Shown in pieces: positions 287 through 28,414 of a stretch of 64,000 nucleotides of DNA. Origin of the DNA: Tubiluchus corallicola (taxonomy: Eukaryota > Animalia > Priapulida); contig JAQGDQ010000249.1 in the NCBI GenBank assembly GCA_030141605.1, positions 246,510 to 310,509 of the forward strand. The letters are read 5' to 3'. The position numbers and the translations under genes were made by a program. Under the pieces are notes generated by a model, which did no database searches, had not been told where the DNA came from, and was given only the letters and a program-made list of their open reading frames with translations. Within the stretch, counting starts at the first letter, position 1, and every line of letters starts with the position of its first letter.

Positions 287-3200
287 CTTGATCTTGGTTT
301 CGATGTTCTTGCATTCTCTTTCGAGAAGATCTTTGGTTCCGAAGGTCAGATAGCACAACTGAAAACAAAGGTAAACAATGAAAACACGGGTAACCAATGA
401 AAACACAGGTAACCAATGAAAACACAGGTAACCAATGAAAACAAAGGTAACCAATGAAAACACAGGTAACCAATGAAAACACAGGTAACCAATGAAAACA
501 AAGGTAACCAATGAAAACACAGGTAACCAATGAAAACAAAGGTAACCAATGAAAACAAAGGTAACCAATGAAAACACAGGCAACCAATGAAAACACAGGT
601 AACCAATGAAAACAAAGGTAACCAATGAAAACACAGGTAACCAATGAAAACAAAGGTAACCAATGAAAACACAGGTAACCAATGAAAACACAGGTAACCA
701 ATGAAAACACAGGTAATCAATGAAAACAAAGGTAACCAATGAAAACAAAGGTAACCAATGAAAACAAAGGCAACCAATGAAAACACAGGTAACCAATGAA
801 AACAAAGGTAACCAATGAAAACAAAGGTAACCAATGAAAACAAAGGTAACCAATGAAAACACAGGTAACCAATGAAAACAAAGGTAACCAATGAAAACAC
901 AGGTAACCAATGAAAACAAAGGTAACCAATGAACAACTTCTAAAATTCTTAGTACAGCCATACCTCTGTTTTCGACCATAATTCGTTCCTAAAAAGTGTT
1001 TGAAAACCGATTTGGTGGAGAACCCATAAGAAATAATGTAAAAGCAAATAATCCGTTCTCAAGCACCAAATGAGCTGTAAAGTATTACGAAATATAATGA
1101 TGCTAACATGCTTATTCAAACAGTAGATGTGATATAATTGATAAGAAAAACGTAATAGAATTACTTTGAAAGAAAAACATAATTATTCCTGCATGAAAAA
1201 CCCTTACGTGTTGGTAGCAGTGTGATAGCATATGTAGGCACGATCGGAAACGTGTGTGATTACTCTCGGGCGCGGTCGGTTACGCTCGGCTCGCCGCGCA
1301 TGCGTTCATCACGTGCTTGGCGGTTGGTCGAGTACCGCAATTGTGGTCGAGAACGGAGACAATTTCAGCTCGAATTTTCTGGTCGAAAACCGATTTGTAC
1401 GAATACGGAGACGTTCGACAACGCAAGTATGACTGTGATTATTTCAACTATTTCCACAAACACAAGAAGCGCAAACGACAAACAGGAACTTTAGAGTAAG
1501 GAACTTCGTGACAAAAAGACACGACAGGATCTCCTTTCCTCTTCTTATAAAGCATAATTTTGATTTGCTAGAAAAGAAATACGACTCACCTTGTTTATGA
1601 GTCTATTAGTGAACAACCGTGGTGCCGCCTGTCTGCTGCGATGAAAGTTTAACGTGACAAGAGCATCGACGCCCAGAGACAGATAATTGTTCATAATCAA
1701 ACCCTGGAAATGCAAAATCAGAGCGAATTAAAGCATCGACATTAAGGTACGAGACGTCAACTTACAACAACAAAACATGTTTACAACAGTCGTCGTCATC
1801 ATCAGTAGTAGAAGTAGTAGTAGTAGTAATAGTAGAAGTAGTAGTAGTAGTAGTAATAGTAGAAGTAGCATCGACATTAAGGTACGAGACGTCAACTTAC
1901 AACAACAAAACATGTTTACAACAGTCGTCGTCATCATCAGTAGTAGAAGTAGCATCGACATTAAGGAACGAGTACACGTCAACTTACAACAATGGCAAAA
2001 ATTTAAAAGGAGACATGATGATTTTTCATATACTACTCCATTTTCAAGTCTGATAAAAAGTATACATTTTGACACAATTAATACTGCAAAAATGTTTCTG
2101 ATAATTAAATAATAGATTAAAAACTTAATTAACGGTGGGCAAGCCCAACTGTTGATGACATCACAAGCTAACATAAATTTCAAGATCAAAAATATTCCAC
2201 GAGCGTGTTGCACGTGTTTGCGAAAGCAAAAATTGAAGTACAGTGCCACTGTAAGATGATATTCAGTGCGTTATACTAAAACTAGGCAAGTTTTAAGATA
2301 GAAATTCGAATTTCAAATTTCCTTCACATTTTGAGCTGTCGAACGTGTGCAGTTCGCCACAAACTAACACATATAGACTGAGAGGTACAGCACCTGTTTT
2401 TGTGCGACACGTTTCCGAAATGCAGGCTATAGTGTTTCTAACTAGCGAATGGCGAAATGCATGTAACAGCGAAGAACTAGTGGCGCGAACGTGAAATTGT
2501 GTTTGTGTGGTAATAATTCTTTCATGTAAGTCATTTTTGAAAAAACAATAAGTTTCCTTTCAATATTTTAAAGAGCAGATTGTTTTGACCTGCAGTTTAA
2601 GATTAGGTCCAGTTTTCACTTATATGTAACATCGCTGTACTACTTTGCCTGTACTACATTACAGGGATGAGAATGACAAATTACAAAAAATTCTGAAACA
2701 GGCCGGGGGTTTGGGGGCCGCAAAGCCCCCATGGGGGTTCAAGGGGGCGAAGCAACAAATTGCAATTTTGTGACCATAGAGAACCTCTAAGTGGACTTAA
2801 AATGTCAATTGCCTTGTCTCATGCATAATTTAAAATACCCAACTATCAAGGATACATGATACCTAATTGTGTCAAAAACGCCTAAGTACTGGCCGCTCCT
2901 ATGCAAAAGTATATAAAAACTGTCTGCAATTGACTCAAATAACTCCGCACAATTGATTCTATATTTTTATACATAGAGATATACACGTGGTTACACTGAT
3001 GTACGTGATGTAAACAAACTGACGGCCTGCCAACTAGCGGTCAGCTTGTGAAATAATGTACTGGGTCCGTAAAAATTTTCTCAACGAATTTACGCGATTT
3101 ACAAAAATGGCACTACTGGTCTTCCAAAAACTCGGAATTCCGCGTATCCGCGGAAAATTCTCATCCCTGCTACATTGGGTAACTAAGTAAATAGACAGAC

Positions 3201-9200: not shown

Positions 9201-12200
9201 CAGCAATTACTGGTATGCTATCTTATTCATTTTACATTACATTCATTTCAGTACATAACAAGTACCATAGAACTATAAACAAAGCTTAATAAACTTTTTC
9301 ACACTTACGTTGTGCCCAAGCAGACTTGTTGTAGGTCAAAGGTTAAGTGTACCACAGCAACGCGTCTTAACTACAACCGTTACGTGACATGCAAGTAAAC
9401 CAAAGCTGTCTGTCGCATCAGTTCAGTAACTTCAGTTGCTTTACGTGGACTTCACTCAATTATGCATTAGTCTGTTTGTAGAGTGATTTACATGTAGGTA
9501 AACCAAAGCTGTCTGTCGCATCAGTATAGTAACTTCAGTTGCTTTACGTGGACTTTACTAAATTATGCGTTAGTCTGTGCATAGAGTGATTTACTAGCAG
9601 GATCTTTCTTGGAAACAAGAAAAAAATGAACTAGGTAAGGTTCTAGCTAGCTGTTAAAACTGTTACTATTACAACAGCTTGGGCTGCGAGGCATTGTCAA
9701 GTGTACACAAACGCGTTGTCTGGTACAATTAACCTTTGACCTTTTCTCGATCATCATCAGTCACTGGAATTGTGAAAAAGCTTATTAAAAAATCACCGTC
9801 TGACTGATCAAAAAATCGATAAGAACACACTACGTGGTATTTGAACCAGCAGCTAAGTGAAATTGATCATTTCTTCTTCGTGGCATCAAAGCTCCACGGT
9901 AAGACGTACCTTATACTTGCCAAGGTCGCACACAGCGTTAGCGTTTTTACACTGTGAGTGCACCGTGATTTGGCACCAGCAGCATCGCCAGTCGCACAGA
10001 TCCGGCATGTCGCCGCACTGTTCCTCGCACACTGTGCACACACTGGGTAATGGTAGATTGCCGTGCACCCAGTGATGTAACAGTGGCTCCCCCACTTTCT
10101 AAAAAAAAATGAAGTATGCAGTAAAGGTGCGACTCCGTGTGTGCGTGATGTGCGATGTGTGATCCGTATTCATTCGAACTCGATCACTATCGTCCGAATA
10201 CGCATCGCGCCGCGATACGCAGATGGGAAACTGCCATTGCCTAGGTGACTATAGCGAGTTCTCAAGTTTCTTGTGACCATTTTCGCTGTTTAGCTTTCTG
10301 AAAATTCTAGTTAGAGGAGTTTTGGTCACTTTAGGGTCTGTAAACAATAATATTTTTCTATTTGAGTTTTTGAGAGGTGGACGAAGCATGTAGTTATATG
10401 TTGTGCATCTAACTGCAGTTCTTTCACTAAATAATGATACCTGCCATATTGTTCTCTCACCTGCAAAATGTTGTGCACACAAAACCTGTGCTTTCTCTTC
10501 CATCTAACAGTATAATAATAAGCAAATGCCGCAGCTTAAATTTCGACAGAGACGTGATTTCCAAAAATTATTGCTTGTAACTTTCACAAATAGCGACCAA
10601 AAATGGCGGAAAAAGAGACGTAAGCTTTGTTAATATGCATAGCGTTTACGAACACGTGGAAACGGTCAATACGCATCACACATTACGGATCACAGATCAC
10701 GCATTACAGATCAAATTCATGCATTACAGATCAAATTCACGCATTACGGATCACGGGTCATGCGTTACGGATCAAAATCACGCATTACGCATCTCAGATC
10801 ACGCATTACAAATCAAAATCACGCATTACGGATCACAGATCACGCATTACGAATCAATATCACGCATTACGCATTACGGATCACAGATCACACATTACGA
10901 ATCAAAATCACGCATTACGGATCACAGATCACGCATTACGAATTACGGATCACAGATCACGCATTACGCATTACGGATCACAGATCACGCATTACGCATC
11001 ACAGATCACGCATTACGTATTACGGATCACAGATCACGCATTACACATTACGGATCACAGATTACACATTACGGATCACAGATCACGCATTACGGATCAC
11101 AGATCACGCATTACGGATCACAGATCACGCATTACGGATCACAGATCACGCATTACGTGCACATGGAGTTGTAGCTTTAGGCACATGATGAACAAGCAAA
11201 ACGCAGTATACGTTGGTTAATCAAGCCTGGTAATTTAAGTCTTACTAACACAATTGATACCTACACACCAAATAACTGATTTACCAAAATATCATATTCA
11301 CACTGTAAATGCTCACTAAACTTAAAAACAAGACCTGCTAGATGTCTTATTGCATAGAGAGATTCTTTCAGCTGGCATGCCGCACAGAACTTTTAAATTT
11401 AAACTCCCTGATGACGATTTTAAAGACATTTGAAACAAGTTTAGATAACACTGAGTAAAGTTTCAAAAAACAATCAGAGAATTCATAGCACACTTTTCGC
11501 AACCTAAGTAAAAGTTTAAATCACTTTACCTTGTCACAAAGATCAATAGTGGTATTTTGGTGAATCACTGGTGCACACTGGGATGGCGATGCAAAAGTTT
11601 AAATCACTTTATCTTGTCACAAAGATCAATAGTGGTATTTTGGTGAATCACTGGTGCACACTGGGATGGTGATGCAATGCCATTTCACCAGGTGGTGTGA
11701 ATATTTTAGATTATTAAGAATTTTCTTTTCTAGTTACTCTAAAATTACTCTAAGATTTCCTTTTTCCCGTTAAGCATAAATCAAGATATTTGCAGTAAAA
11801 ATTATCGATACTAATTACACCACCCACCACTGATACATTACCAATCATCATTAAACTCTTACCGTACATTACCAATCATTATTAGATGCTTACCGTACAT
11901 TACCAATCATTATTAAACACTTACCGTACATTACCAATCATTATTAAATGCTTACCGTACATTACCAATCATTATTAAACGCTTACCGTACATTACCAAT
12001 CATTATTAAACGCTTACCGTACATTACCAATCATTATTAAACGCTTACCGTACATTACCAATCATTATTAAACGTTGTTTTTTTTGTTTTTTTTTTTTTT
12101 TTTTTTTTTTTTTTGTTTTTTTTGTTGTGTTTTTTTTTTTTTTTTTTGTTTTTTTTTTTTTTTTTTTTTTTTCACATTACGAATCAAAATCATAAACGCT

Positions 12201-13772
12201 TACCGTACATTACCAATCATTGTTAAACGCTCACCGTACATTACCAATTATTATTAAATGCTCGCCGGACATTACCAATCATTATTAAACACTTACCGTG
12301 CATTAAAAATCATTATTAAACGCTTACCGTGCATTACCAATCATTATTAAACGCTTACCGTACATTACCAATCATTACTAAACGCTTACCATAGACAGAG
12401 CTTTACAGCATATGTGCGCATCAGCCGCAGGAAGACACTCGTGGTCCACGCAGACGCCGCAGCTGTCGCACAGTAGTCCATGGACTACGTGACATTCACA
12501 GACGCTGCAGTAGAATGGTCGAGTGAACGTGTCAGTGGCACACCATCTGTGTCCTACAGTAGAAAGAATTTGCTGTTAAAACTGCTAAATTGCGCATGGC
12601 ATCCAACAAAACGTACAGTCAACCTCGGATATAAGGGACGCCTCAGGAATGGAAAAAATCGTCCCTTGTCAGATTGAAGGTGTATCTAGACCTGTACTTT
12701 TACCCATATTTTTATGGATTATTGCTACACATTCAGTGCAAGTGATATGTAGGAAGCTTCTTCAGTGATGCGAGATGTATGTGACCGCGGAAACCGAGGC
12801 CAAGTTTACGAAAAATTAAGGTTAAAAATTGATCAATTTTGCTTTGATCATAGGGTCGCTTATATGTGAGGTAATTTACCTGAAGATATCGTCCCTTATA
12901 ACCGCAAGTCCCTTATATCTAAGTACCTTATATACGAAGATTATATGCAGTCAACCTCGGGTATAAGGTACTCGCCTAAAAGGGACCACCAACACCGGTC
13001 TCGATTTTTCGTAACACTTTTTATAACAAAATCGAGACCGGTGTCGGTGGTCCCTTGTGTCCCTTACAAGTGAGTACCTTACACCCGAGGTTGACAGTAT
13101 ATGCGGGGTCGATTTTAAGCCAATTTGACAGTTTTCTTCAAACTGGGCCTCGTGCAAGGTGAAATCAAATCAGGCTACTCAACTGGATGTTTATAGCAAA
13201 CTTGAACTTGATTCATACCTGCGACATTCTTAACAATCTAATGTAGATAAGAAAGAGCAGTGGTCTTAATGTGGATCCTTGTGGCATACCCTAATGTAGA
13301 TAAGAAAGAGAAGTGGTCTTAGTGTGGATCCTTGTGGCATACCCTAATGTAGATAAGAAAGAGCAGTGGTCTTAGTGTGGATCCTTGTGGCATACCCTAA
13401 TGTAGATAAGAAAAAGAAGTGGTCTTAGTGTGGATCCTTGTGGCATACCCTAATGTAGATAAGAAAGAGCAGTGGTCCTAGTGTGCATCCCTGTGGCACA
13501 CCATAGGTATATTCTGTATATAAAATGCGCGTGTCGACTCATGCAGACCTCAATGGTAAACTCTACTGCAACGACAAAAACCCACCTTTCGTGATGTCAC
13601 GCACCGGAATTTCGTAGTGCCGCTTCCTCTTTCGTAAAACCGTGATGACGAAAATGCTTCCGAAAAACACGGCGGCAACGTACAGGGTGATCTGCCGAGG
13701 TGGAAGAGTTCCCCAAAGCATGGAGTTGCCCTCGGCAGCACTCGATGGCTTTTCTACGACGGCATCTGCCAT
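287..13772 (-). CDS. DGKE: Diacylglycerol kinase epsilon, 9 coding exons (about 423 aa visible; 3' exons lie beyond the left edge)
   Basis: Exons 13586-13772 (MADAVV..TM helix..RDITK), 12390-12553 ([19 protein letters not shown]1A), 9910-10098 ([10 protein letters not shown]1B), 8337-8537 (..[22 protein letters not shown]), 6801-6944 ([14 protein letters not shown]), 5610-5752 ([17 protein letters not shown]), 3310-3364 (WKVTIRHS..), 1590-1703 ([18 protein letters not shown]), 287-358 ([16 protein letters not shown]). All introns are GT-AG with matching phases. An N-terminal TM, two C1 domains and a catalytic domain is the epsilon-type architecture. Confidence 0.95.
362..935. repeat. 19-bp minisatellite (about 30 copies) abutting the DGKE acceptor at 359-361
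   Basis: Unit GAAAACA(C/A)AGGTAACCAAT; explains the spurious ORFs at 240-979. Confidence 0.95.
1732..1991. repeat. Short local tandem duplication with an (AGT)n expansion
   Basis: AGCATCGACATTAAGG..ACGTCAACTTACAACAA occurs three times, separated by AGTAGT tracts. Confidence 0.85.
2002..2165 (+). mobile_element. Dispersed repeat terminus starting TTAAA(A)GG (possibly a Kolobok-like MITE end)
   Basis: Related sequence (GATGATTTTTC..ATAATTAAA..TTAATTAACGG) recurs at about 7185-7342 (reverse), 28279-28410, 61707-61868 (reverse) and 62709-62871. The superfamily is inferred only from the TTAA|AGG terminus. Confidence 0.55.
2662..3169. mobile_element. hAT-type MITE, copy 1
   Basis: TIRs CAGGGATGAGAAT/ATTCTCATCCCTG; flanks CTACATTA/CTACATTG (8-bp TSD with 1 mismatch); second copy at 14533-15006. 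Confidence 0.85.
3900..5410. repeat. 83-85-bp minisatellite (about 18 copies) in DGKE intron 6
   Basis: Unit AAGAATTCCTCCTTGTAGCACACAATACAACAGCGCCACCTGTACCCATGACAGTAGGGGGAGCCCAGCATGACAGAACAGGCCT; the ORF track recurs every 83 or 85 nt. Confidence 0.95.
5963..6212. repeat. About 73-bp tandem repeat (about 3.4 copies)
   Basis: AAAGATTCCCGC..TTATCAAGAGTATGGTATCAGTTTTACTGACATTAATCTGCAATGATTCTCACC repeated. Confidence 0.9.
6238..6819. repeat. 69-bp minisatellite (about 8 copies) containing the DGKE exon 5 tail and donor
   Basis: Minus-strand unit TGATAAGTTAAAACTTGAG|GTACGTTTACTTTGATTAGTGCAG...; the first unit overlaps the real exon end at 6801. Confidence 0.9.
7434..8383. repeat. 53-bp minisatellite (about 18 copies) made of the last 45 nt of DGKE exon 4 plus the donor
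   Basis: Minus-strand unit GAACACTTAATACAGTTCTTTAAAGGCATTTTGAATCCCGCACAG|GTACGTGC encodes [15 protein letters not shown] followed by a 5' splice site. Confidence 0.95.
8573..8725 (+). repeat. Dispersed repeat (second copy at about 13925-14088)
   Basis: Shared ATAGCAAAA..CCATAAGTCG..TTTCTAGTTAT..GAGGATCATTTTGATAC..CTGAGATAATCCAC. Confidence 0.7.
9335..9741. mobile_element. MITE-like element with imperfect TIRs (related partial copy at about 41140-41335)
   Basis: GGTCAAAGGTTAAGTGTACCACAGCAACGCGT ... ACGCGTTGTCTGGTACAATTAACCTTTGACC; internal duplication of about 105 bp. Confidence 0.7.
10670..11160. repeat. Degenerate 7/21-bp satellite (CACGCATTACGGATCACAGAT)n
   Basis: Directly visible; source of the ORFs at 10627-11220. 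Confidence 0.9.
11836..12390. repeat. 31-bp minisatellite starting at the DGKE exon 2 donor, interrupted by a poly-T tract (12075-12172)
   Basis: Minus-strand unit GTAAGCGTTTAATAATGATTGGTAATGTACG; the first GTAAGC is the real donor at 12389. Confidence 0.9.
12614..13099. mobile_element. Two adjacent Tc1/mariner (pogo/Tigger-like) MITEs; 12948-13099 is a near-perfect hairpin of about 150 bp
   Basis: TA|CAGTCAACCTCGG termini; CAGTCAACCTCGGGTATAAGGTACTC ... GAGTACCTTACACCCGAGGTTGACAG|TA with an internal inverted CACCGGTCTCGATTTT/AAAATCGAGACCGGTG. Confidence 0.7.
13238..13506 (-). repeat. 53-bp tandem repeat (5 copies) derived from a non-LTR retrotransposon RT motif
   Basis: The minus strand of the outermost unit reads [18 protein letters not shown], the LINE RT PQG motif; other units read [16 protein letters not shown]. 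Confidence 0.85.
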
Positions 13773-15049: not shown

Positions 15050-16690
15050 GTCTAAGAATTGTGCTTGTATCATGATGTATATTTCAGTTGCCATTGTTCT
15101 TATGTTTCCGTTGTCAGATTTTTATTTTCAGTTCTTGTTTGATTCTTTATTGAACACTTTTTATTACTGCATATGAATTGTATTAATATGTTATATATAA
15201 CGCGTTATAAACAAATCAATTTAATGCCATTTGTAAGAATTAAATCCTAACTACAAGCAGTACTAACACTAATAAACTGTAGCACAGCGCTCATAAAAAT
15301 GTTCATCACTAACCAAAGGCCAGCTGACTAGATGACCAATTGGTCTTTCGCTGCTCTTTCTTCGCAATTTTTTCTTCAAATTATTATTTATATTATAAGA
15401 ATGTGTGGATTGGAAGATAAATAAAAAAGATTATAAGATAATAAGTATAAAAGTACAATATATTTTGCTTTTGTTTTTCTAAATTTATGGTACATTCCAC
15501 TTTGAAGCATCATAATTCATGACATAGTTTTAACTATGCTGAATTATGGACGGTACACACGTTTCCAATAATTTTGTTGCTTTTGTGTGATATAATTTTT
15601 GCCCTAAGTTGAATCGTGTTTTGATTTGCTTGTGATAATTTCTTTTGTTTTCAGCTGAATTGCGTTTGTTTTATAAAATTTTCGCTTTGAGTTTCATTTT
15701 GTTTGATACAATTTTTTGCTATAAGTTAAATTCCGTTCTGCATTGCTTGTGAAAACTTACTTTTATTCTGAGTGGAATTGCATTTCTGCGTTGAGTTGAT
15801 TTTTGTTGCTTTTGCCTTTTATATATACACAAACACCTAATAAATGTCATGAGCTTGTGAGTAAACTTGTATTTTTAATAAGGGGCAGCTGACCAAGTGA
15901 CCAATAGGTCTTTCGCTGTTCCTTCTCAGCTGCAATGAAATGTAAAAATAACTATGACGAATTTTAACTGCATTGAGAAAATAAAATTGAATAAACGGTT
16001 GTATTCTCAGCAATCCTACCAAGTTTAATTTAGACGTGTACCACACAGCTCAAGGTCCAAGCAGCAAAACCGCACACTGATTCCTCCTGTAGGCAAATAT
16101 TCAAAACTCACACTTAATTTTAACGGTTTACAAACAAACTGATTCAAATATAGTACTAGCTTAACCAATTTTTACACTGAACGTAAAACAGTTCTTTTGT
16201 GTGCTTTAACTATCTGGTTATTTATTTTACCTCAGATCATCAAAAATCGCTCTGTATTTTTTTACAATTATTATAATATATTATGACTCCATTATACATT
16301 CGCTTGCTCATGTCTAAGAATTATGCTTGTGTTATAAAGTAAATTTCAGTTGCCATTGTTATTATGTTTCTGTTGTCAGATTTTTATTTCAGTTCAGTTT
16401 TATTTCAGTTTGATTTTTTTTATTATGCACTTATCATTACTGTGTATGAATTGTACTAACACGTTATAAGCATGTCAATTTAATGTCATTCGTAACAATT
16501 TAGTTTTTATTATAAGCAGTACAAACACTAATACACTGTAGCATAGCGCCTATAAAAATGTTCATCACTAACCAAAGGGCAGCTGACTAGATGACCAATT
16601 GGTCTTTCTCTGCCCTTTTTTCACATTTTTGTTACTGAATTAATTGTATTATAACTGTGTGTGTGTTACAAGATAAATAAGATTATTATT
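15050..16690 (+). repeat. Diverged local duplication (15050-15425 versus 16312-16690) ending in a LINE-3'-like tail
   Basis: Colinear GTCTAAGAATT..ATTTCAGTTGCCATTGTT..CAGCTGACTAGATGACCAATTGGTCTTTC..AAGATAAATAA; partial third copy near 15880-15925. Confidence 0.7.
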
Positions 16691-17206
16691 ATTAGTTCTT
16701 AAAAATTTAAATTATATTAAACCAACATTATTAACGTCAATTTTGTAGCATTAAAACCACGGTGAGTGCTCACAGAATGTTTACTTCTCCGTTGCTTAAA
16801 ACACGATTCACTGACTGGTTAAAAACTTAAATATTATCTTCATGCTTAAACGTCTACAAGCATCTAAACATAAAACCGTCGTATACTACAACCTAATACT
16901 CACGATAAAGCACAGTACTACAATGTAATTAAACCGTTTTAATCAAATCTTTATGCTGAAGTATGGATCTATGTTCTGATCAGACAGTGGAAATTCATGA
17001 TAATTTGAAAAGCAACATAATTTACCTGATGATCATGGCTCTCTCTCAAACACAGAAACGAAGATTAAAGTGCCATTAAAAAGTAGTCAATAAGTAAATT
17101 AAGTCAATATCCTATGCAGGCAATGGAAGCTACAGAGTGCTGCATCCCAACACATGTGAATTAAATGGAAAAGAATGTTGCAAAATGATTGAGTGCTCGT
17201 TATCTA

Positions 17207-18880
17207 TGTGATGATTGGTTATACCACCCATCATTGTCGCAACACCTATTTTGATATATCTTTCCTATGAGGTTGTGTGTGCATAATTAATGATCTAATT
17301 ACCTGATTGATTTATTGCACTGTTTATTTAAACTTATATTACATTGTGTGTTTTTGTAAGATCTTGACACTAGATGGCTCTGGCCGCTTATTTCTCTGCT
17401 TACCTGTAATTAGGTTACCTGAAAATTCGAATACCAAATGGCTTCAACCTGTTTTGGGATCTTACTACCGAGTTCGTGTTTTACACTAGTTATGTTCTGA
17501 CTGTCGAAGTTACAGGGTGGTGGAGTTTTGCTGGTTAGTCCACATTCTGAGGTAATTTTATATGGCTGAACACCAAGTTTGGTGTGAACCTGTCTTTGTT
17601 GGCACTCGTATGCAGTGAGATGATTTATCACAAAGACAATGGTTTTGGCTACTTTTGTTTATTCGTTGTTTGCTGTGATGACACTGTCTTGATATTCCAA
17701 GAAGCAAGGGTTTGGTAACCATATTTCTACCTGCAGAATAGGACTCAAATTCTCGTTGAATAGTAGTGGAAAACCAGTCGAGGACCAGTTCTACCTGGAC
17801 CAATGGTCTGTCTGTTTGTCTGAACTGAAGGTTCTGTTTGTCACCCTGCAAAAGGACGATACCTGGCTTTATTACTGGGAGTCTGAGGCAACGAGGCAAG
17901 AGTTCAATCCCGAGGCAACCAGGTACGAGTTCAACCGCTGGATTTCCGGAGTAGTTTTAAAGCGTGGTCCATGCAGAGGCTGGATTGGTGACCATTGGCA
18001 AAGAGTTGCTGGCGAGGACGTGGCTGACTACTGGAGATGAAAAGCTGGTGTGGTATGGTTGGAGACTCAAGAGCGTGGTTGATAGATCCAAAAGCCTGAT
18101 GAGAGACAGAAGCGTAGCCGGCCAACGTTACTTTTGGGAGAATTAGGTATTGTTCGAAATTGTTATCAGTTCAATTTTGCTATCATCGTTTTACTGATTA
18201 AATTCTAAATCTAAATATTAGCTTTTAGTTCCGTTTTCGTTCTGATTAAATAATTTGCACGTGCACACAAGTGTTTCACCAGTGACACGGATTCACGTAG
18301 CCTACACAAATAAATGATTATCCTGTAGATTTAGCACAGGGGTGTGCAAATTGCGGCCCGCGGGCCACTAATGAAAATGCGGCCCAGGCGATTAATTGAG
18401 TGTATCCAGCTGAAGTCCGTGCCACGATCCCAAAGATAGTGCGGGTAGTTTTTTCTACTAGATCGGATGCCATTAACCCTTACAAGACGGTTGTAGCTTA
18501 ATGTCACTGTACTACACAGACTGTGTGATGCACATTACTAATATGCATTGTAATGAAATTACCACAATCTGTCCTGAAAGTAGAAATATATAGTTTGTAA
18601 TATAAATTTTAATAACTTCTAAAATAGTTTCTTGAATGCAGTAGTAATGATGTACGCAGGTCGGATGCAAAAAAATCGTTATTAGGCCTTTCTGTACTTG
18701 GCTCCTTGATCAAACTGCTTGTGGCCCACAGGAATTGCGGGAAAGTTTCATGTGGCCCAGCTAGTCAGATAATTTGCACACCCCTGATTTAGCATATAAA
18801 AGTGACGGAAACGCTCGAGAACCTTGAACACAGTACTCTGATTTCTTAACGTCCTGACTTAATTATTACACGGCGTCACA
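17207..18880 (+). repeat. Left LTR (1674 bp including a nested MITE), in opposite orientation to the internal domain
   Basis: TGTGATGATTGG...GGCGTCACA. It is the reverse complement of 24483-25613 apart from about 9 substitutions seen by eye, an extra 85 bp (17620-17704) and the 450+8-bp MITE; 1131+85+458=1674. Confidence 0.95.
18337..18786. mobile_element. hAT (Charlie-like) MITE nested in the left LTR
   Basis: TIR CAGGGGTGTGCAAATT/AATTTGCACACCCCTG; perfect 8-bp TSD ATTTAGCA; the empty site is present in the right LTR at about 24569-24576. Confidence 0.95.
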
Positions 18881-18890
18881 ATTTATAGCA

Positions 18891-18903
18891 TCTCTCTCCT
18901 TTT
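18891..18903 (-). other. Polypurine tract (AAAAGGAGAGAGA)
   Basis: Purine run downstream of RNase H, 10 nt from the left LTR. Confidence 0.75.
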
Positions 18904-19165
18904 AAAACTCTGAAGGAGTTTTCACAACATAGCGACACCTATATTGAAACGATTGAAGAAAATAAAAGCTAAACAATCATTTGCTAACTAAATGGGCTAT
19001 CTTAATTACTCTGAGAAGCAACTTCAATCAATACTGATACAAAATAAATCTACAAATAACGCAATAAACGACTTTACTTCTGCCATTTCACTTTTAAAGG
19101 CTTTATATTGTTTAATTGGAAAAAAAACAATTTCTTCGTATAAAACTATCAAAATTAGGCAAAAT

Positions 19166-21113
19166 TTATAGGCGTGAAAGTGCATCCGCCACAACATTCA
19201 TTCGTCCCGGAATATTCTCCACCGTGTAAGAGTATTCCTGAAAAATGAGCGACCAGTGACACAACCGGCGGTTATTACGCTTAATGCGAGGAAGGGCCAA
19301 CAAGCTGCGCTGGTCAGTTCGGATAGTAAAATGCCGCCCTTCCAGAAAGTATCTCAAGTTCTCCACACAGTATACAACTGCTAAACACTCCACTTCTACC
19401 ACACTGTAATTACGCTCAGTAACAGTTAATTTTCTGCTGAGGTATGTTATAGGTACTTCACCATGTTCACTTTGTTCTTGGGATAGTACCCCACCTACAC
19501 CACTCAAAGATGCATCAGTAGTCAGTATAAAAGGCTTCATGAAATCTGGAGAGTGCAATACAGTGTCGGAGCCAACGCAGCCTTGCAATTCCACAAAACT
19601 CCGCTCGCAGGCTTCTGTCCACTCAACTTTGGTTGGAGCGCTTTTCTCAAGTAGCTCAAAAAGAGGAGCAGCCTTGCTACTGAACGTAGGAATGAACCTA
19701 CAGTAGAAGCCAACAAGACCCAAGTAGGCCCGTACTTGTTTCTTGTTTTGTGGACGTGGGAAGTTGTGTATGCATAGAATCTTGTTGGGTTGTGGCCACA
19801 AACGATTTTTGCAAATAACATAGCCAAGGAATTCAGTTTCTAGCATTGCAAAGCTGCATTTCTTTGGCTTTAGAGTCAGGCCAGCTTGCCTGATGCAAAA
19901 CAGTGTCAAACGCACATGATTTAGATGTTCGGGCCAAGACGTGGACTTAATTACAATGTCATCGATGTATCCTCTGGCAAAACGGGCCACAGTTTCAAGG
20001 ACACGATCTACTATGCTTTGGCAGGTAGATGCCGAATTCATCAGTCCAAACGGCATTACTATGAATTCAAATTTGCCAAAGTCAGTGGCAAATGCAGAGA
20101 TTGGCTGTGATTCAGGTGTGAGCATTATTTGCCAATAAGCTTTGGAGAGGTCCAGAGATCCAGAGTGCACTGTGCATCTCATGAACAATGTCGTCGACTC
20201 TTGGCATCGGGTATGGAAGAAAAGCTGTCTGAAGATTTAACTTGCGATAATCGACGCAAAATCTGACGGTGCCATCTCGTTTAGGGACTAAGACTGTTGG
20301 CGCTGACCAAACTGACTCAGAGCGCCTGATTACCCCTAACTTTTGAATGTCCTCCACTTCCTTCTTACCAGCTCCTTGCGTGCTTGTGGGAGTCTGTAGG
20401 GCCGCTGTTGGACTGGTGTCTGGTCAGTAAGAGAGATGTGATGTTCTACCACAGATGTGCGTCCCGGTAAATCGGTGAACATCTCCTTGAATTCTTGAAG
20501 TACTGACATCAGCTGCTCAGATTGGTCTTTGGTCAGAAAAGAGGGTAATATAACATCTTCTAGGGACTGAATTTCCTCAGCCAATGGCGGGAAGGCGTAT
20601 TCAGGAAAGCCGATTTCTTCGTCTAGCTCATCTTGGCCTACTTGCTCTTCAGCTAACTCAGGCACCTTAGTGAGATCGTTTTCTTCACGTTTAGAGAACA
20701 GAATAAGATTGTCATCTCTTTCTACAAATGGTTTGGGCATATTGATGTGATAGATGCGAACATTGCGTCTATTGCTTTTGTTTCCAATATTCACCTTATA
20801 TGTCAAGTCGGACACCTTGTCTACAACCTCGAATGGTCCTTTGAAGCACTTCTGCATCTTTCCATGCCCTTCATGCATCAACACGAGCACTTTGTCCAAT
20901 TTCCAACGACCTATCTGACGACATACGATCGTACCATCGTTTTTGGGCAATCTTTGCTTGACGAAGGGACTGATGTGCATCTTCAGTAGCACTTTCTACT
21001 GTGTTGATGATTCTCGTAACACATTCATCAATATTTTCTAATTTAGGAGAGTCTTGGCAGCCCCAATGTTCTTTCAAAGCAGCCAAGGGGCCCCGCACAG
21101 GGAAGCCATACAC
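19166..21113 (-). pseudogene. pol: Disrupted pol 3' half: integrase C-terminus/linker, reverse transcriptase, RNase H
   Basis: VPKRDGTVRFCVDYRKLN, LDLSKAYWQI, MPFGL, YIDD, TTDAS, RNYSVVEVECLAVV, NVVADALSR; split across ORFs 20871-21113, 20336-20992, 20112-20357 and 19166-20188 by frameshifts and stops. Confidence 0.92.
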
Positions 21114-23857
21114 TAATTCAAATGGAGAGCAAACAAGCAGAAAGGAAGAAGTTCATCCCATGGCGGACTATGTTCATCTTGCAGAAGTTTTAGGATGGAC
21201 GATTTAATGGAAGCATTGTATCGTTCTGTGAGACCATTAGCTTGGGGGTTGTATGGGGACGTGTAAATACCTTTTACTCCAGGGGCCTTTTCAAGATCAC
21301 GTATGAGCTTGGACGTGAACTGGGTCCCCCGATCTGAGATGATTTCCCTAGGCATCCTGTGTCTGCACATGTATTGTAAAAGTGCTTTCACAATTGTTTC
21401 TGTTTCTATGTTTGGTAATGGTATACAGTCAGGATAACGTGTTGCATGATCAATGATTGTTAAAGCATATTTGTTTCCTGAGGGTGTGCGTTGTGTACCT
21501 AGTGGGCCTATGATGTCAATTGCAATTGTGCGAAATGCAGTTGATGGTATTGCCAAAGGTTTGAGTTTCGTTTTATCAGCGCGTCGCACACGAGCAGTCT
21601 TTTGGCAGGTGGCACATGAACGGCAGAACTGTATCACAGAGCGTTTGATGCGTGGCCAAGTATATTCCTGCAGTACTCGCTTGGTAGTTTTCCTAATGCC
21701 TAAATGTCCAGCCATCTTATTATCATGTGCCAGGGAGAGCACCTGCAGTCTCCTTGTCTTAGGCACAACCAGTAGTTCTCGTGGTTCTAGGCTAGGACGC
21801 TCACATGCCAGGTAATAAAGTACTCCTTCATGAAAATAGTAGCCTTTGCCTTCTTTCCGCACAATTTCTTCAGTGCGTGCATTGTCGCGTAAGTTCCTTA
21901 AAGTTACATCATCTACTTGTTCTTGGTGTAACTGGGATTTACTGAGCTCAGTTAGGTGCATTTGGTTTTGCTCTGACTCGTGCTCAGTCAGTAGAGGTGC
22001 TTTGATTTTGTCTTGCAAAAACTCTTGTTGGAGGGTCTTGTCTCTTTCCTCAAGGTTTTGCAGTTTTGCAGCTTTACTGCGTGTAACAACTAATGCCGTG
22101 TGCAGCTTGTCACCACTACTGTTTTCATCCTGCTTCATAGCATGCTTTTTAAATTGGCAGGAGGAATCCATGTTGGCCACAGTAGGGGTTGAAGCTGGTT
22201 TCGGTACACACTGGAAGTTCTTACTCCTCTTTGCCGGGAATGGAGTAACTGCCGTCCGAAAGTCATTACCAAGTAAGAAGTCAACTGGAAGGTCACCAGA
22301 GACAGCCACTGTTAAATATCCACTGACCATCGGACTTTCAACCTCCACAATAGCCATGCGTACTTCCTTGGAATCTCCATGTACACACTTAATCGTCCTG
22401 GTTGACTCATCAACATATTGCTCTGGCCTTACCAAATCTGGGTGAACAAGGCTAGTGCATGCCCCAGTGTCGCGCATGCATTTCACATTCTTGCCATTCA
22501 CAGATGTCCAGCAGCAATATTCGTCTTCAGAAGATGCAATAATGTCGCGCGACTTCTTCGTGGTTTTGCTTGAACCACCTTCCTGGGTCTTCTTAGCATC
22601 ACCTTTAGCTAAAAAATTCCGACCCATCGTGCTTCTGCCTTTCCCGGTGGCTTCAGCACCTGCCATGCGTCTTCTGCATTGATTTCTCTTATGTCCCAAC
22701 TCGCCGCAGCTACTACCATCGTGCATTGGCGGCTTCAATCCTTTCTTAAATGTGTTAGGTTGCATGACTTTTAAACCACCCTGTATCGACGTCACAGATG
22801 CTTGGTACAAGTCTGCTTTTTCAACGACATCATCGAAGGAATGAAGATCTTGCCTCCGGACCCATTCACACATGTCACGTGACATCAGTGTTAAGACTTG
22901 TTCCTTACAGACCAATTCCACAACTTTATCTACAGAGTCAGCACCGTCTGCATTTCTGTACTCATTGTAGGCACGAACAAGTCTTCTGCCAACTTGCTGA
23001 AAAGTCTCATTGGCCCTCTTTTTTATAGCACGAAAACGTTTCAAGTAGCTCTCGCTGGTTAATACATATGCTGCCAAAAGTGCTTTCTTCACAGCATCGT
23101 AGTTGCTCATTTGCTCAGGAGGTATTTGGTGAAAAGCAATTGAAGCTTTCCCGGTGAGTGCAGGCCCTAAAGATGCTGTATATACGTCCTGAGGAAACTT
23201 ATTTGCAGCTGCAGTTGATTCAAACTGACTTAAGAAATCGTCGATGTCTTCAGCGTTTTCATCAAAGACCCTCATTTTGATACGCTGGATGGGTGCATGC
23301 AATTGCGGGTTAACAGGAGGGGAAGGGTTTGCGACCTGTAATAAAGTGGGTGCGACCTCAATTCGTGCAAGTTCGGCACGCAATTTTTCAAGCTCAACCC
23401 GTTCCTGATGTTCAAGTTGCTTAATACGTAACTCTTTGTCCATCTGCATTTGCATCTCCATCTGCTTGACAGCTCGACGCTCTTCGCTGCGTAGCATTCC
23501 CTCAGTAATGTCGTCTGCCATAAATGACAAGTCGGGCGGGGGTGTGTGTTCTAACATCGTTGCCACAGTTGGCTTCCTTTTTACGCCACCTGAAATAGGG
23601 TTCACGGGAGTTGCTGCATTTAAATTAGCTTCAACATATATACCCGCGTCCAGGTCCGGATCACCAAGGCCTTGAATTGCTTGTGTTAGCGCAGGTTGCG
23701 TCATATTCAAAGGAAGCTGAGCTTGTAGAATAGCAGCTATTAAAACAGGTTTAGTCGCTGTTGAGGCAACTGTGATTCCGCGTTCAGCTATAATTTGTTT
23801 TAGCTGTGACACTTTTAAAATATTTAACTCGTTTTCAGTGTATGCGTTTGCTGCCAT
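21113..23857 (-). CDS. gag-pol: Gag-protease-integrase polyprotein (914 aa, ends in a frameshift within the integrase)
   Basis: SCAN-like capsid (CKEQVL..CEWVRRQ..ADLY), eroded CCHC knuckle (CGELGHKRNQC), protease RDTGA, integrase HHCC (AHDNKMAGHLG..CATC) and DDE (IDIIGP, SDRGTQF, GLTERYN). Confidence 0.92.
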   Translation of the reverse strand: MAANAYTENELNILKVSQLKQIIAERGITVASTATKPVLIAAILQAQLPLNMTQPALTQAIQGLGDPDLDAGIYVEANLNAATPVNPISGGVKRKPTVATMLEHTPPPDLSFMADDITEGMLRSEERRAVKQMEMQMQMDKELRIKQLEHQERVELEKLRAELARIEVAPTLLQVANPSPPVNPQLHAPIQRIKMRVFDENAEDIDDFLSQFESTAAANKFPQDVYTASLGPALTGKASIAFHQIPPEQMSNYDAVKKALLAAYVLTSESYLKRFRAIKKRANETFQQVGRRLVRAYNEYRNADGADSVDKVVELVCKEQVLTLMSRDMCEWVRRQDLHSFDDVVEKADLYQASVTSIQGGLKVMQPNTFKKGLKPPMHDGSSCGELGHKRNQCRRRMAGAEATGKGRSTMGRNFLAKGDAKKTQEGGSSKTTKKSRDIIASSEDEYCCWTSVNGKNVKCMRDTGACTSLVHPDLVRPEQYVDESTRTIKCVHGDSKEVRMAIVEVESPMVSGYLTVAVSGDLPVDFLLGNDFRTAVTPFPAKRSKNFQCVPKPASTPTVANMDSSCQFKKHAMKQDENSSGDKLHTALVVTRSKAAKLQNLEERDKTLQQEFLQDKIKAPLLTEHESEQNQMHLTELSKSQLHQEQVDDVTLRNLRDNARTEEIVRKEGKGYYFHEGVLYYLACERPSLEPRELLVVPKTRRLQVLSLAHDNKMAGHLGIRKTTKRVLQEYTWPRIKRSVIQFCRSCATCQKTARVRRADKTKLKPLAIPSTAFRTIAIDIIGPLGTQRTPSGNKYALTIIDHATRYPDCIPLPNIETETIVKALLQYMCRHRMPREIISDRGTQFTSKLIRDLEKAPGVKGIYTSPYNPQANGLTERYNASIKSSILKLLQDEHSPPWDELLPFCLFALHLN

Positions 23858-24461
23858 GGTAATTTACCGTTTCGTTTTATTTTTAATTTAATAAGGTATT
23901 GATACAGCAGTCAAATACTATGTGCAACTGTATTTTGTTTATAGTATTAGATTCTACGTAATTAATTTTTTTGCAAAGTATTTATTTGCGTTCTGTTTCG
24001 TTTTAACTTTACTATTACACTTGTGAAAATTTATTCACCACTCACGTGGTTTCTTTTACTCTACTACTCTCACTCTGTACACAAGCAAATTGCTCAGATT
24101 ACATACATCTAGTATTATGCAAAAATAAGTTCCGAACCGAACAGGAAATTATAAGCCGTTCTATATATTACTAGGGCTCATCAATTCGTAAACAAGCTTT
24201 TGCGTCGCATGCACTTCACAGCCAGACAATCTGACCTAGTTTACCTATAGTTCGAAATCGCCTACTGCAATGAAACTAACTGCTTTCTTGCGCAGAGAAA
24301 TTTATACCTACAGCACGGTCAACGCAAGTGTCAAAAGTTCTAAGCTTGCTCAGTAGAAATATTATATTATCAGTTCTGTAAAGGGCAGAGATGCTATTTT
24401 TCTAACAAGAAACAGAATAAATAATCTGCACAGCGGTTTCATTCAGTGACAGGCCTTAATT

Positions 24462-24479
24462 ATCCCACTTCTGACACCA
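24462..24479 (-). other. Primer binding site complementary to a tRNA-Leu 3' end
   Basis: TGGTGTCAGAAGTGGGAT, 3 nt inside the right LTR; matches the ...ATCCCACTTCTGACA-CCA end of metazoan tRNA-Leu(CAA). Confidence 0.85.
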
Positions 24480-24482
24480 AAT

Positions 24483-25613
24483 TGTGACGCCGTGTAATAA
24501 TTAAGTCAGGACGTTAAGAAATCAGAGTACTGTGTTCAAGGTTCTCGAGCGTTTCCGTCACTTTTATATGCTAAATCTACAGGATAATCATTTATTTGTG
24601 TAGGCTACGTGAATCCGTGTCACTGGTGAAACACTTGTGTGCACGTGCAAATTATTTAATCAGAACGAAAACGGAACTAAAAGCTAATATTTAGATTTAG
24701 AATTTAATCAGTAAAACGATGATAGCAAAATTGAACTGATAACAATTTCGAACAATACCTAATTCTCCCAAAAGTAACGTTGGCCGGCTACGCTTCTGTC
24801 TCTCATCAGGCTTTTGAATCTATCAACCACGCTCTTGAGTCTCCAACCATACCACACCAGCTTTTCATCTCCAGTAGTCAGCCACGTCCTCGCCAGCAAC
24901 TCTTTGCCAATGGTCACCAATCCAGCCTCTGTATGGACCACGCTTTAAAACTACTCCGGAAATCCAGCGGTTGAACTCGTACCTGGTTGCCTCGGGATTG
25001 AACTCTTGCCTCGTTGCCTCAGACTCCCAGTAATAAAGCCAGATATCGTCCTTTTGCAGGGTGACAAACAGAACCTTCAGTTCAGACAAACAGACAGACC
25101 ATTGGTCCAGGTAGAACTGGTCCTCGACTGGTTTTCCACTACTATTCAACGAGAATTTGAGTCCTATTCTGCAGGTAGAAATATGGTTACCAAACCCTTG
25201 CTCACTGCATACGAGTGCCAACAAAGACAGGTTCACACCAAACTTGGTGTTCAGCCATATAAAATAACCTCAGAATGTGGACTAACCAGCAAAACTCCAC
25301 CACCCTGTAACTTCGACAGTCAGAACATAACTAGTGTAAAACACGAACTCTGTAGTAAGATCCCAAAACAGGTTGAAGCCATTTGGTATTCGAATTTTCA
25401 GGTAACCTAATTACAGGTAAGCAGAGAAATAAGCGGCCAGAGCCATCTAGTGTCAAAATCTAACAAAAACACACAATGTAATATAAGTTTAAATAAACAG
25501 TGCAATAAATCAATCAGGTAATTAGATCATTAATTATGCACACACAACGTCATAGGAAAGATATATCAAAATAGGTGTTGCGACAATGATGGGTGGTATA
25601 ACCGATCATCACA
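24483..25613 (-). repeat. Right (5') LTR, 1131 bp
   Basis: Minus strand TGTGATGATCGG...GGCGTCACA, followed by ATT and the PBS. Confidence 0.95.
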
Positions 25614-28414
25614 ATCTAGTAACTGGTATCGCTGTATCTGTGTCCATGTATTTTAGTTAACGGAAGTGGTGTTGACAAGCCACTGACGTAGCAGTGTCTA
25701 GTTTTTTTGCTGGATTACTGCTGCGTTTACCTGTCTGAAGGCATCTAAAACTAGGTACTTCAGCCTTAGCAAAACCCCTTATGTTTGCATTTAATGATAT
25801 GATAACTTAAAATGGGTATCCTGATTTTTTGAAATATAGCGAAATCCCCCCGATTTAAGAGAAATGACAGATTAGAAAATCAAATTACCGGCCCATTGCT
25901 CGTTCGCTTATACAGTCGTACGAAAGAAAACAGCGTGTTAAGATTAATCTTAAGATTAACGTTAAGTTTAATTACAGTTCTTTAGCATTCTTTTCACTAA
26001 TATGTAGGCAAACACGTGTAGTTCTAATATGTTCTAATGTTCTTCTACAGTTTTTCTCTAATATGTACGATTCAAGTCTTAAGGTGCTTTAGGTCCAATG
26101 TTTTTATCACTACAATTACTGTATTAGCAAATTTTTGGTGGGCTCTTTGTGAGCAGGAAGACTTCTCAGAAGTGCTAAAGTAAAGCTCAGTGTTCATAAA
26201 AATAAGCCTCTTCAAGACCGTTAGGTATGACTTTCAAAATATTTTACTCATGGTAATAATGATAAATAAAAAGTGTTGTAGCAAATATAAAAATTGTTGT
26301 ACAAAACTTTGTCTTAAGTTTTTATTAATTTTGTTGTGTATATTTTTGTGATAATTTTGTCTATGCGATAACCACTTAATTTTATCACATATTCATTTAA
26401 TACGTAATCTTTATTAAAAAGTGTTAAAAATATTTATAAGATAGTATAAAATATGATAGCAGGATACAATACTTACAAAATAACTTTTTAAGATAAAAAG
26501 GCTAGTTAAAAGAGCTAAGGCTATATATATATATATGGTGTCTATATATATATATATACAGGTGTCTGTTAAAAGACCTTGATCCCAATGTCACAGTTAA
26601 GGTGACAAGTTCCAATTTTAGCAACTTGTAGCACGCATCAAACTTAATGAAAGGTCTCGTGGAGTGTATTGTATAATATAAGCCGGGACTGGTCAACCAC
26701 TGACCCTGCTAGGAGGCAACAGCTGAAATTCTAGGTCAGTGATACAAATGCTTCTTATGTCAAGGAACAGTAGGTTGTAATACATCAAATGAAAGGCCTC
26801 GATGAGACAAATTAATTTGTGTATGTTGAAATCAAAAAGTGACAAGTTCAGATTTCACCAAAATTGTCAATGTGAACTTTCAAGAACAATCATACTTAGG
26901 TACATATTGTTAATTATTTTGAAAAATGTTTTTATTTGTAAATGCAAATTTGCAAAACAAAAGCTGTTATATAAAGCATCTCTTGTCACAGAAGCAGAAT
27001 CTTACCTCAACATTTGACAGAATATTAAACGTTCACTAGTTATTTTGTCTGGGTGAATTTTTTAATATCCACTATAAAAGCGCCATGCATAACTTTTTGA
27101 AGGTAGTCATCTGTCCGATTTTGTTTGTTGTTTGAGGGACTTGTTGCAAAATTGCTCTCTCCGTGCACAGTATAGACGGAGTATTGAAACTTTGACAGCG
27201 CCAAAAACCTGAAGTAGTTATTTATTATTTATTTATTTATTTTATTTATTCAGTCTTTTCTTTTTAAAAAGTGTAAACAGTTGCCCTACTTCAATTGCAC
27301 AAAATGACTTCAACGGTACTAAAAGTGACTAATTGTGAGAAAAGTGATTTCAAAAGTACAAAAAAAATTTGTTAGGGATGAGCACTTAACGTTTTTTAGT
27401 TTCTAATATTAGTTTTTTTAGAAGTAGAAAAGGTGTAGTCTAAGACTTCTGGTAGGCAACCCTAGAAACCCGAGATTTTAGATATAAGTGCTGTCTTAGG
27501 TCACACTTTGTCTTGTGTTCTCTACCTGACACTGGAAGAATTCTAAGGCACAGTTCACACACGGCAAAAGTTGGTAAACTTATAAAATAAAATTCATGAG
27601 TTCACGACGCCATGTACGAACTGTAGTTGACCACCTTACTGTTCAAATTTACCTGAACTTTGTTTACTTAATTAGTTTTAAAAAATGTAAATACATTACC
27701 AGTCAATTACAATATTATGAATCATTCATCAAATTTTTATCATAGAAATAGAGAGAGAGCTATGCTTACTTTGCTTCTCGACTAACTGTCACATCTTTTT
27801 TGCATTGGACTTTTTAAAACTGTTTAATTTGAAAGCACTTAATGTGTTTACAGCAAATTGTACATTATGCATTACAGACTTTTTGCATTCAAGCTTCAAA
27901 TACTTTAATTTGAATGCCCTTCTTTATTTGTTTACAGCAAATTGTACTTCATACATTAACACAATTTGCAAACTGTGCTTTCAGATGCTTGAAATGTTTA
28001 ATCTGGCTCTAAACGGAATGCAGCTGGCTTCCCTAGAGCTCGGTTTACAGTCGCCCGGTGAATTTAAACAGGTTTGACAAGCTAACGCTGTGGGTTAGCT
28101 GCTAGGGTTTCATAATATGCAATTACTGAAGCCTATTTGTGTACCAAGGAAAATATCCGCTTATTCGCGGTCACACTAAAGGAGAATTTTGTAAAAATAA
28201 CACCGTTTGTTTGCGCGTTTTGTCTATAAATAGACTTATGTGAAAAGACCTCCAGCGTGTGAGTTATTTTTGATACATTTTAAAGGAAAACGGCATGATT
28301 TTTCACATCCTACCCCATTTTAAAAGTGTATATTTTAACACCTATAACAATGCCAAGCTTTTCTGATAATTAAATAATAGGTTAAAAATTATAATTAACG
28401 GCAGGCGAGTCATA

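What the first reader, a model, noticed from the sequence alone, without database searches (positions are those of the whole stretch)
17202..25618. Gmr1/Gypsy retrotransposon with inverted LTRs inside a single 5-bp TSD
Seen: the two LTRs (about 1.2 kb, about 9 substitutions by eye) are reverse complements, so both outer ends are the same TGTGATGAT (U3) terminus, and ATCTA flanks both. The PBS sits normally behind the right LTR. At the other end the PPT is followed by 10 nt (TGCTATAAAT) and then the U5 end of a flipped LTR. Established: integrase-encoding LTR elements have direct LTRs as an obligatory product of strand transfer; inverted termini belong to DIRS (tyrosine recombinase, no TSD) and to Ginger DNA transposons. 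Inference: the unit integrated as one U3-U3-ended substrate. It could be a family with long terminal inverted repeats (structurally between Gypsy and Ginger), an aberrant reverse-transcription or two-donor integration product, or a precise post-insertion flip of one LTR.
Basis: partly seen in the sequence, partly recalled or inferred. Interest (0 to 1): 0.88.

Follow-up and report, generated by a model that had tools for sequence, protein, structure and literature searches.

The report
One-off retrotransposon copy, flipped end repeat
A broken jumping-gene copy sits in an animal-type chromosome with one end repeat backwards while the other copies read here are normal, likely the scar of a copying error made just before it inserted, not a new kind of element.

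Summary
The LTRs at 17207-18880 (+) and 24483-25613 (-) are inverted, differ at 9 of about 1130 aligned sites, and ATCTA flanks both outer U3 ends. The domain order SCAN-PR-IN-RT-RH is Gmr1-like, and pol is broken. It is not a family architecture. In public contigs of two samples, 5 of 5 listed contigs leaving the PPT continue into a direct U3, and 24 run from the U5 end into unrelated flanks. The 10-nt 'spacer' resolves exactly: 5 nt of the family's normal PPT-U3 spacer, the first U3 base, then the flipped LTR's U5 end with the 3-nt LTR-PBS spacer plus one base. An integrated 3' LTR lacks that tail, which argues against a simple flip. Most likely, a malformed cDNA capped by a reversed plus-strand strong-stop copy integrated through two U3 ends. 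The inner junction itself was not seen in the listed contigs. AI notes from this scan report similar one-off inverted-LTR Gypsy copies in other genomes (unchecked).

The parts
17202..17206 (+). Left target-site duplication ATCTA
   Evidence: the flank-to-U3 junction is bridged by contig X1 record 1 (16913-17246, depth 10)
17207..18880 (+). Flipped LTR (U3 end outward, U5 end inward), interrupted by a MITE
17618..17702 (+). 85 nt of LTR present in the left arm and missing from the right arm
18329..18794 (.). High-copy MITE (18337-18786) with 16-nt TIRs and an 8-bp TSD, inserted after the LTR duplication; hAT-like by TSD length (label recalled)
   Evidence: summed contig depth about 199,000 against about 9 in the left-flank bin in X1
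18881..18884 (+). Tail of the flipped LTR: the 3-nt LTR-PBS spacer plus one base equal to the first PBS base, as expected of an unintegrated U5 cDNA end (inference)
   Evidence: the inverted match extends to 18884 <-> 24479
18885..18890 (-). The family's normal 5-nt PPT-U3 spacer plus the first base of U3; the normal direct 3' LTR stops here
   Evidence: contigs of 3 of 3 runs match from 18885 and continue into a direct U3
18891..18903 (-). Polypurine tract
   Evidence: sequence
19166..20236 (-). RT (C-terminal part) and RNase H
   Evidence: Pfam RVT_1 2.9e-21, RT_RNaseH 2.2e-34
20112..21152 (-). Integrase C-terminal domain and RT N-terminus, spread over several reading frames (broken)
   Evidence: Pfam Integrase_p58_C 4.9e-07 and SH3_Tf2-1 in 20339-20995; frame map
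21113..23863 (-). ORF with weak HeH/LEM-like N-terminus, SCAN capsid, protease, integrase zinc finger and core
   Evidence: Pfam SCAN 6.7e-07, gag-asp_proteas 3.1e-05 (below cut-off), Integrase_H2C2 2.9e-19, rve 9.5e-11
24462..24482 (-). 3-nt spacer (24482-24480) and 18-nt primer-binding site starting TGG (24479-24462); resembles a tRNA-Leu 3' end (recalled, not tested)
   Evidence: the same U5-PBS junction is seen in one X2 contig
24483..25613 (-). 5' LTR in normal position (1131 nt)
25614..25618 (+). Right target-site duplication ATCTA

Best explanation
This is a single broken copy of an ordinary direct-LTR Gmr1-like retrotransposon family whose 3' LTR is replaced by a reversed LTR, likely because a malformed cDNA was built before integration and then inserted through two U3 ends. 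Shown: inverted arms, a single 5-bp TSD, direct LTRs in the listed family contigs, and the junction's position at two reverse-transcription landmarks. Inferred: the growing plus strand reached the PPT/U3 boundary and went one base into U3, where it must displace the plus strand already there. It was then joined end to end to a free LTR copy that stops just past U5, as a second-round plus-strand strong-stop DNA does in Ty3. The join would be an RT template jump, or host end-joining of two cDNA pieces; these two cannot be told apart here. Both outer ends were then U3 att sites, and integrase would have inserted them in one concerted step, giving the TSD. Afterwards the arms drifted (9 substitutions, an 85-nt deletion, a MITE). 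Such a copy is predicted not to propagate, because minus-strand strong-stop DNA finds no direct R repeat at the 3' end and pol is broken.
For: (1) Family architecture is direct. Loose letters before 18885 are the reverse complement of the U3 start in 5 of 5 contigs in the listed rows (X1 2, X2 2, X3 1; two samples, two studies). One of these is a diverged copy (9 differences in 114 nt). 24 contigs in the listed rows (X1 10, X2 7, X3 7) run from the U5 end into mutually unlike flanks (agreement 0.46-0.68 in the multi-contig rows). (2) The junction is the family's PPT-U3 boundary +1 nt joined to U5 + spacer + 1 nt. The 4-nt tail matches the 5'-LTR/PBS side; chance about 0.014. (3) The junction does not use the 5-nt TCACA microhomology that both LTR ends share. 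(4) The TSD is perfect, chance about 0.002. (5) In Ty3/Ty1 a second plus strand ends at the end of U5 after tRNA removal, is displaced, and dead-end strong-stop DNAs accumulate (PMC5371799, section 2.2 read). (6) The left flank-U3 junction, with the left arm's own base at 17216, is in an independent contig (X1 record 1).
Against: No listed contig bridges the inner U5-to-PPT junction (24 pieces shown, 194 not shown). In X3 a single direct-type contig covers the stretch, so that sample's contigs lack this junction; contigs drop rare variants, so this shows no absence. The right outer junction and an empty allele were not seen in the listed rows. The RT region differs from the dominant family contigs by about 3.5-4% (table 8). 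The 24 best-supported RT sites are 9 synonymous and 15 non-synonymous, not different from neutral (p=0.24). The arms differ by only 0.8%, which could mean the LTR pair is younger than the insertion. The Ty3-type plus-strand cycle has not been shown for Gmr1 elements (no search was aimed at this).
Confidence: 0.68

Rival explanations
1. A normal element inserted first. Later, replication template switching or break repair replaced its 3' LTR with a reversed copy of the 5' LTR, entering at the shared TGTGA end and overshooting 4 nt into the PBS side.
For: Both LTR ends share a 5-nt inverted repeat that could seed a switch at the outer breakpoint. A copy of the 5' LTR would also carry the spacer. 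The RT region is more diverged from the family majority (about 3.5-4%) than the arms are from each other (0.8%), with a neutral-looking spectrum.
Against: The inner breakpoint ignores the available TCACA microhomology and lands within one base of both RT landmarks. Divergence is uneven: about 0.5-3.4% per contig in the gag-PR-IN part (table 8), and no majority difference is listed in U5 18800-18880. That fits an inherited mosaic template as well as it fits age.
Confidence: 0.16
2. Assembly artefact: pieces from different loci or haplotypes joined at the inner junction.
For: The inner junction was not seen in the listed contigs, and no genome or long reads were available.
Against: The window has no N gaps. 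The arms are biologically distinct (9 substitutions, an 85-nt indel, a MITE with its own TSD), so this is not a palindromic read. The two joined parts have no overlap for an assembler to use. The TSD matches on both sides, and the left outer junction is in independent contigs.
Confidence: 0.08
3. Two events at one site: the left LTR is a solo LTR with its own TSD (ATCTA ... ATTTA, one change), inserted into the TSD of an element that had lost its 3' LTR.
For: 18881-18885 matches the outer TSD at 4 of 5 bases (sequence), and the family has many U5-flank junctions, as solo LTRs would give.
Against: It needs a base-exact loss of a 3' LTR, a second insertion into the same 5 bp, solo-LTR formation, and a mutation in 5 bp at about 0.4% per-arm divergence. 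The same 5 bases are explained with no change by spacer + 1 nt + first U3 base.
Confidence: 0.05
4. A self-propagating family or subfamily with long terminal inverted repeats, structurally between Gypsy and Ginger.
For: The layout at this locus, and the fact that contigs drop rare variants, so a rare subfamily could be hidden.
Against: 5 of 5 listed PPT-exit contigs are direct, and 24 U5 ends face flanks. No DIRS-like internal complementary region was found: the best match of either 80-nt LTR end to the internal region had E=0.3. No tyrosine recombinase among the Pfam hits of the 6 ORFs scanned. pol is broken.
Confidence: 0.03

Closest known systems
Gmr1-like Ty3/Gypsy LTR retrotransposons (Osvaldo/Gmr1 clade)
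   Same: SCAN-PR-IN-RT-RH order (definition in PMC8220671 and bioRxiv 10.1101/2025.03.03.638093, passages), TG...CA LTRs, PBS, PPT, 5-bp TSD; sister copies have direct LTRs.
   Different: This one copy has its 3' LTR replaced by a reversed LTR that carries the LTR-PBS spacer; pol is broken.
Ty3/Ty1 second-round plus-strand strong-stop DNA (PPT recycling)
   Same: An LTR-length plus strand that ends at the end of U5 without the PBS (PMC5371799 section 2.2) has the same extent as the flipped arm.
   Different: In the model it transfers to the 3' end of minus DNA in the normal sense. Here it would have been joined in reverse at the PPT/U3 boundary; the section read describes no such product.
PrERV-1 of guppy (endogenous foamy-like retrovirus with an inverted 5' LTR)
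   Same: An integrase-type LTR element with one LTR inverted and low LTR divergence (PMC5210030, two passages).
   Different: A retrovirus with the 5' LTR inverted. The passages give no junction or TSD and leave the mechanism open.
Ginger1/Ginger2 DNA transposons
   Same: Gypsy-related integrase, TGT termini, inverted ends (PMC2836005, passages).
   Different: Ginger TIRs are about 40-300 bp, TSDs are mostly 4 bp, and there is no RT. Here the ends are 1.2-kb LTRs with PBS, PPT and RT/RH, and the inversion is not a family trait.
DIRS retrotransposons
   Same: Inverted terminal repeats around an RT-encoding body (search listing only; details recalled).
   Different: DIRS use a tyrosine recombinase and an internal complementary region and make no TSD (recalled). 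Here there is a DDE integrase and a 5-bp TSD, and no internal complementary region was found.

Membership tests
Gmr1-like Ty3/Gypsy | Integrase upstream of RT-RNase H | tested here: met
   H2C2/rve in 21116-23863(-), IN C-terminal domain in 20339-20995(-), RVT_1/RNase H in 19169-20236(-)
Gmr1-like Ty3/Gypsy | SCAN-type capsid followed by protease | tested here: met
   SCAN 29.4 bits (cut-off 27); protease hit below its curated cut-off
Gmr1-like Ty3/Gypsy | RT placed in the Gmr1 clade by phylogeny | not tested
   no tree built; the one protein search, for longer relatives only, found none at 1e-30
Gmr1-like Ty3/Gypsy | Direct LTRs in the family | tested here: met
   5 of 5 listed PPT-exit contigs direct; U5 ends face flanks in 24 contigs
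Gmr1-like Ty3/Gypsy | Direct LTRs in this copy (canonical insertion) | tested here: not met
   arms inverted; the copy is a malformed derivative, not a canonical insertion
Gmr1-like Ty3/Gypsy | PBS, PPT, TG...CA ends, short TSD | tested here: met
   tRNA identity of the PBS not tested
Ginger DNA transposons | Short TIRs (about 40-300 bp) and no RT/RNase H | tested here: not met
   1.2-kb arms, RT and RNase H present; definition from PMC2836005 passages
DIRS | Tyrosine recombinase instead of DDE integrase; no TSD (recalled) | tested here: not met
   rve integrase and no recombinase hit in 6 ORFs scanned; 5-bp TSD
DIRS | Internal complementary region matching the termini (recalled) | tested here: not met
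   best blastn-short match E=0.3; the 3' UTR vs 5' UTR inverted score was reached by 80 of 300 shuffles

The most novel reading that the evidence does not exclude
Inverted-LTR Gypsy insertions are the fossil of a recurrent, stereotyped error: plus-strand synthesis stalls at the PPT/U3 boundary, jumps onto the 3' end of a displaced second-round strong-stop DNA, and integrase inserts the product by two U3 ends. This copy would then be a base-exact genomic record that Ty3-type PPT recycling also operates in animal Gmr1 elements. It would also show a one-step route from an LTR retrotransposon to an integrase element bounded by identical inverted ends, the starting layout of a Ginger-like DNA transposon.
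Probability: 0.3. Interest if true: 0.6.

Novelty: new member of a known kind. Interest (0 to 1): 0.3.

Why it matters
As it stands, this is a curiosity with an unusually readable junction. It suggests that a Gypsy-type integrase can pair two U3 ends in vivo and that reverse-transcription intermediates can be fixed in chromosomes. LTR-finding pipelines that demand direct repeats would miss such copies (inference), so their frequency is unknown. If junctions of many such copies cluster at the same two landmarks, they would give an in-genome assay of plus-strand synthesis in elements that cannot be grown in the lab. It does not establish a new element architecture.

Tried and rejected
No whole genome is held, so a copy census was impossible; public contigs were used instead. 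No RNA holder was listed; this says nothing on expression. A viral-contig scan with RT-RH gave 1 distant locus (28% identity), not followed. A protein search for longer, intact relatives found none at 1e-30 (weak evidence). An apparent inverted likeness between the PPT region and the 5' UTR near 24380-24400 was not the best local alignment, and the best score was reached by 80 of 300 shuffles: rejected. No DIRS-like internal complementary region was found. The flanks have no paralogue in the window that would give an empty site. Dating the internal region against the LTR pair was inconclusive. It used 24 RT-RH sites from the 40 rows shown of 510; one further RT-RH row (19289, not the majority letter in X1 and absent in X2 and X3) and all rows outside that ORF were left out. 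Literature: 'inverted LTRs'+Gypsy+retrotransposon gave 2 papers, both DIRS-related; Gmr1+LTR+inverted gave 16, none on this by title or abstract start; 'LTRs in inverted orientation' gave 0; 'inverted LTR'+TSD+reverse transcription gave 1; aberrant-provirus/U3-end terms gave 0 and 6 listings, none read. Three papers asked for by id were not held, so retention of one tRNA base at the U5 end and integration by two like ends rest on recall. A search of earlier findings by this LTR's sequence found nothing. No supplements were read.
Full report
1. The observation. The window holds a 1131-nt LTR at 24483-25613 on the - strand and its reverse complement at 17207-18880. The aligned parts differ at 9 sites (0.8%). 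The left arm carries a 450-nt MITE with an 8-bp TSD (empty site in the right arm), and the right arm lacks 85 nt. Both outer ends are the U3 terminus, and ATCTA lies directly outside both; that has a chance of about 0.002 from flank composition.

2. What the element is. On the - strand the ORFs give SCAN capsid, protease, integrase zinc finger and core, integrase C-terminal domain, RT and RNase H, in that order. Integrase before RT, with a SCAN capsid, is the Gmr1-like arrangement (PMC8220671 and bioRxiv 10.1101/2025.03.03.638093, passages). No tree was built. The coding region changes frame at least three and probably four times between about 21150 and 20100, so this copy is broken. A PBS follows the right LTR after a 3-nt spacer, and a PPT lies at 18903-18891.

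3. Is inversion a family trait? No genome was held, so I laid public contigs. Four runs hold the stretch (three from one sample, one from another study). Internal depth is roughly ten times the flank depth in X1, so the family is multi-copy. Three of the four runs were laid on 18800-19250. Every listed contig that leaves the PPT (X1 2, X2 2, X3 1) continues into the start of U3 in direct orientation, including a diverged copy. From the U5 end, 24 contigs in the listed rows (10, 7, 7) run into long, mutually unlike flanks, and one runs into the PBS; 8 further loose-end rows were not shown. A U5 end facing host DNA is what direct 3' LTRs and solo LTRs give and what an inverted-LTR family could not give. 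The family is therefore ordinary and this locus is the exception; only a rare subfamily dropped from the contigs could escape this.

4. The inner junction. The family contigs fix the normal boundary: PPT, a 5-nt spacer, then U3. In the window the internal strand follows this to the first base of U3 (18885) and then switches to the reverse complement of U5 preceded by four bases (18884-18881). Those four bases are the 3-nt LTR-PBS spacer and the first PBS base, exactly as beside the 5' LTR (chance about 0.014). The 10-nt 'spacer' is thus fully accounted for. An integrated 3' LTR ends at CA, so a simple flip of it cannot supply the tail, and the junction does not use the TCACA microhomology that both ends share. 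Both breakpoints sit within one base of a reverse-transcription landmark: the plus-strand start and the U5 end of unintegrated cDNA. The extra base could be a retained terminal tRNA base or a non-templated addition (recalled; papers not held).

5. Mechanism. In Ty3 and Ty1 the PPT primes repeatedly. The second plus strand ends at the end of U5 because the tRNA has gone, it is displaced by a third, and dead-end strong-stop DNAs accumulate (PMC5371799, section 2.2 read). A free strand of that extent, copied from its 3' end by a plus strand stalled at PPT/U3, gives the observed molecule; end-joining of two cDNA pieces would give the same. Either way both termini are U3 att sites, and one concerted integration explains the TSD. 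These steps are inferred; the anatomy is shown. I give this 0.68.

6. Against this reading. The inner junction was not seen: none of the 24 listed pieces bridges it (194 not shown), and in X3 one direct-type contig covers the stretch. Contigs drop rare variants, so this is not absence. The left outer junction is bridged by X1 record 1 (16913-17246, depth 10), on a flank haplotype that differs from the window by one base and 13 gap positions; its single difference is at 17076, so it shares the left arm's own base at 17216. The right outer junction and an empty allele did not appear in the listed rows. The RT region is about 3.5-4% from the dominant contigs, with a neutral-looking spectrum (9 synonymous of 24, expected 26%, p=0.24). 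That is more than the LTR pair suggests and keeps a post-insertion templated replacement alive (0.16). But the gag-PR-IN part is closer and unbroken, so a mosaic, already defective template fits too. Misassembly (0.08), a solo LTR landing in the same TSD (0.05) and a true inverted family (0.03) are weaker.

7. Comparison and novelty. It is not Ginger (short TIRs, no RT; PMC2836005 passages). It is not DIRS (integrase, TSD, no internal complementary region). An endogenous retrovirus with one inverted LTR has been noted in passing in guppy, mechanism unclear (PMC5210030 passages). My searches found no paper describing this junction type (most subscription papers are not covered). Unchecked AI notes of this scan report about six similar one-off cases in other genomes. 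I did not test them; they suggest the anomaly recurs across Gypsy families. Verdict: real by the evidence at hand, a one-off malformed copy of a known kind of element, valuable mainly as a clean specimen for a cross-genome junction census. Interest 0.3.

Noticed in passing
window 18337-18786: A very high-copy MITE with 16-nt TIRs and an 8-bp TSD inside the left LTR; many internally deleted variants appear in the contigs.
   Followed up: partly
window 19660-21150 versus 21690-23370: The 3' half of pol holds all the frame breaks and is about 3-4% from the dominant family contigs, while the gag-PR-IN ORF is open and mostly about 1-2% away. The copy may be a mosaic of an older dead and a younger template.
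   Followed up: partly
window 19791 to 21652: A joint skipping 1860 nt of pol appears in three runs of both samples (depth 28.5, 555.7, 304.4), suggesting an amplified internally deleted, non-autonomous subfamily.
   Followed up: no
window 23735-23820 (-): The gag ORF starts with a weak HeH/LEM or Rho_N-like helix-extension-helix hit (E 0.002-0.012, below cut-off).
   Followed up: no
window 17693-18040 (+) / 24865-25269 (-): The LTR holds a 115-134 codon open frame, tryptophan-rich, with no Pfam hit.
   Followed up: partly
window about 25690-25743 and 16575-16664: Short high-copy repeats in both flanks (depth in the thousands).
   Followed up: no
window 200-13500: A dense cluster of minisatellites (periods 19, 85, 69, 53, 31 and others).
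   Followed up: no
window 61713-62862, 58965-59897, 53842-54670: Three further elements bounded by inverted repeats (175 nt at 100%, 42 nt at 98%, 44-53 nt at 81-84%), probably non-autonomous DNA transposons.
   Followed up: no
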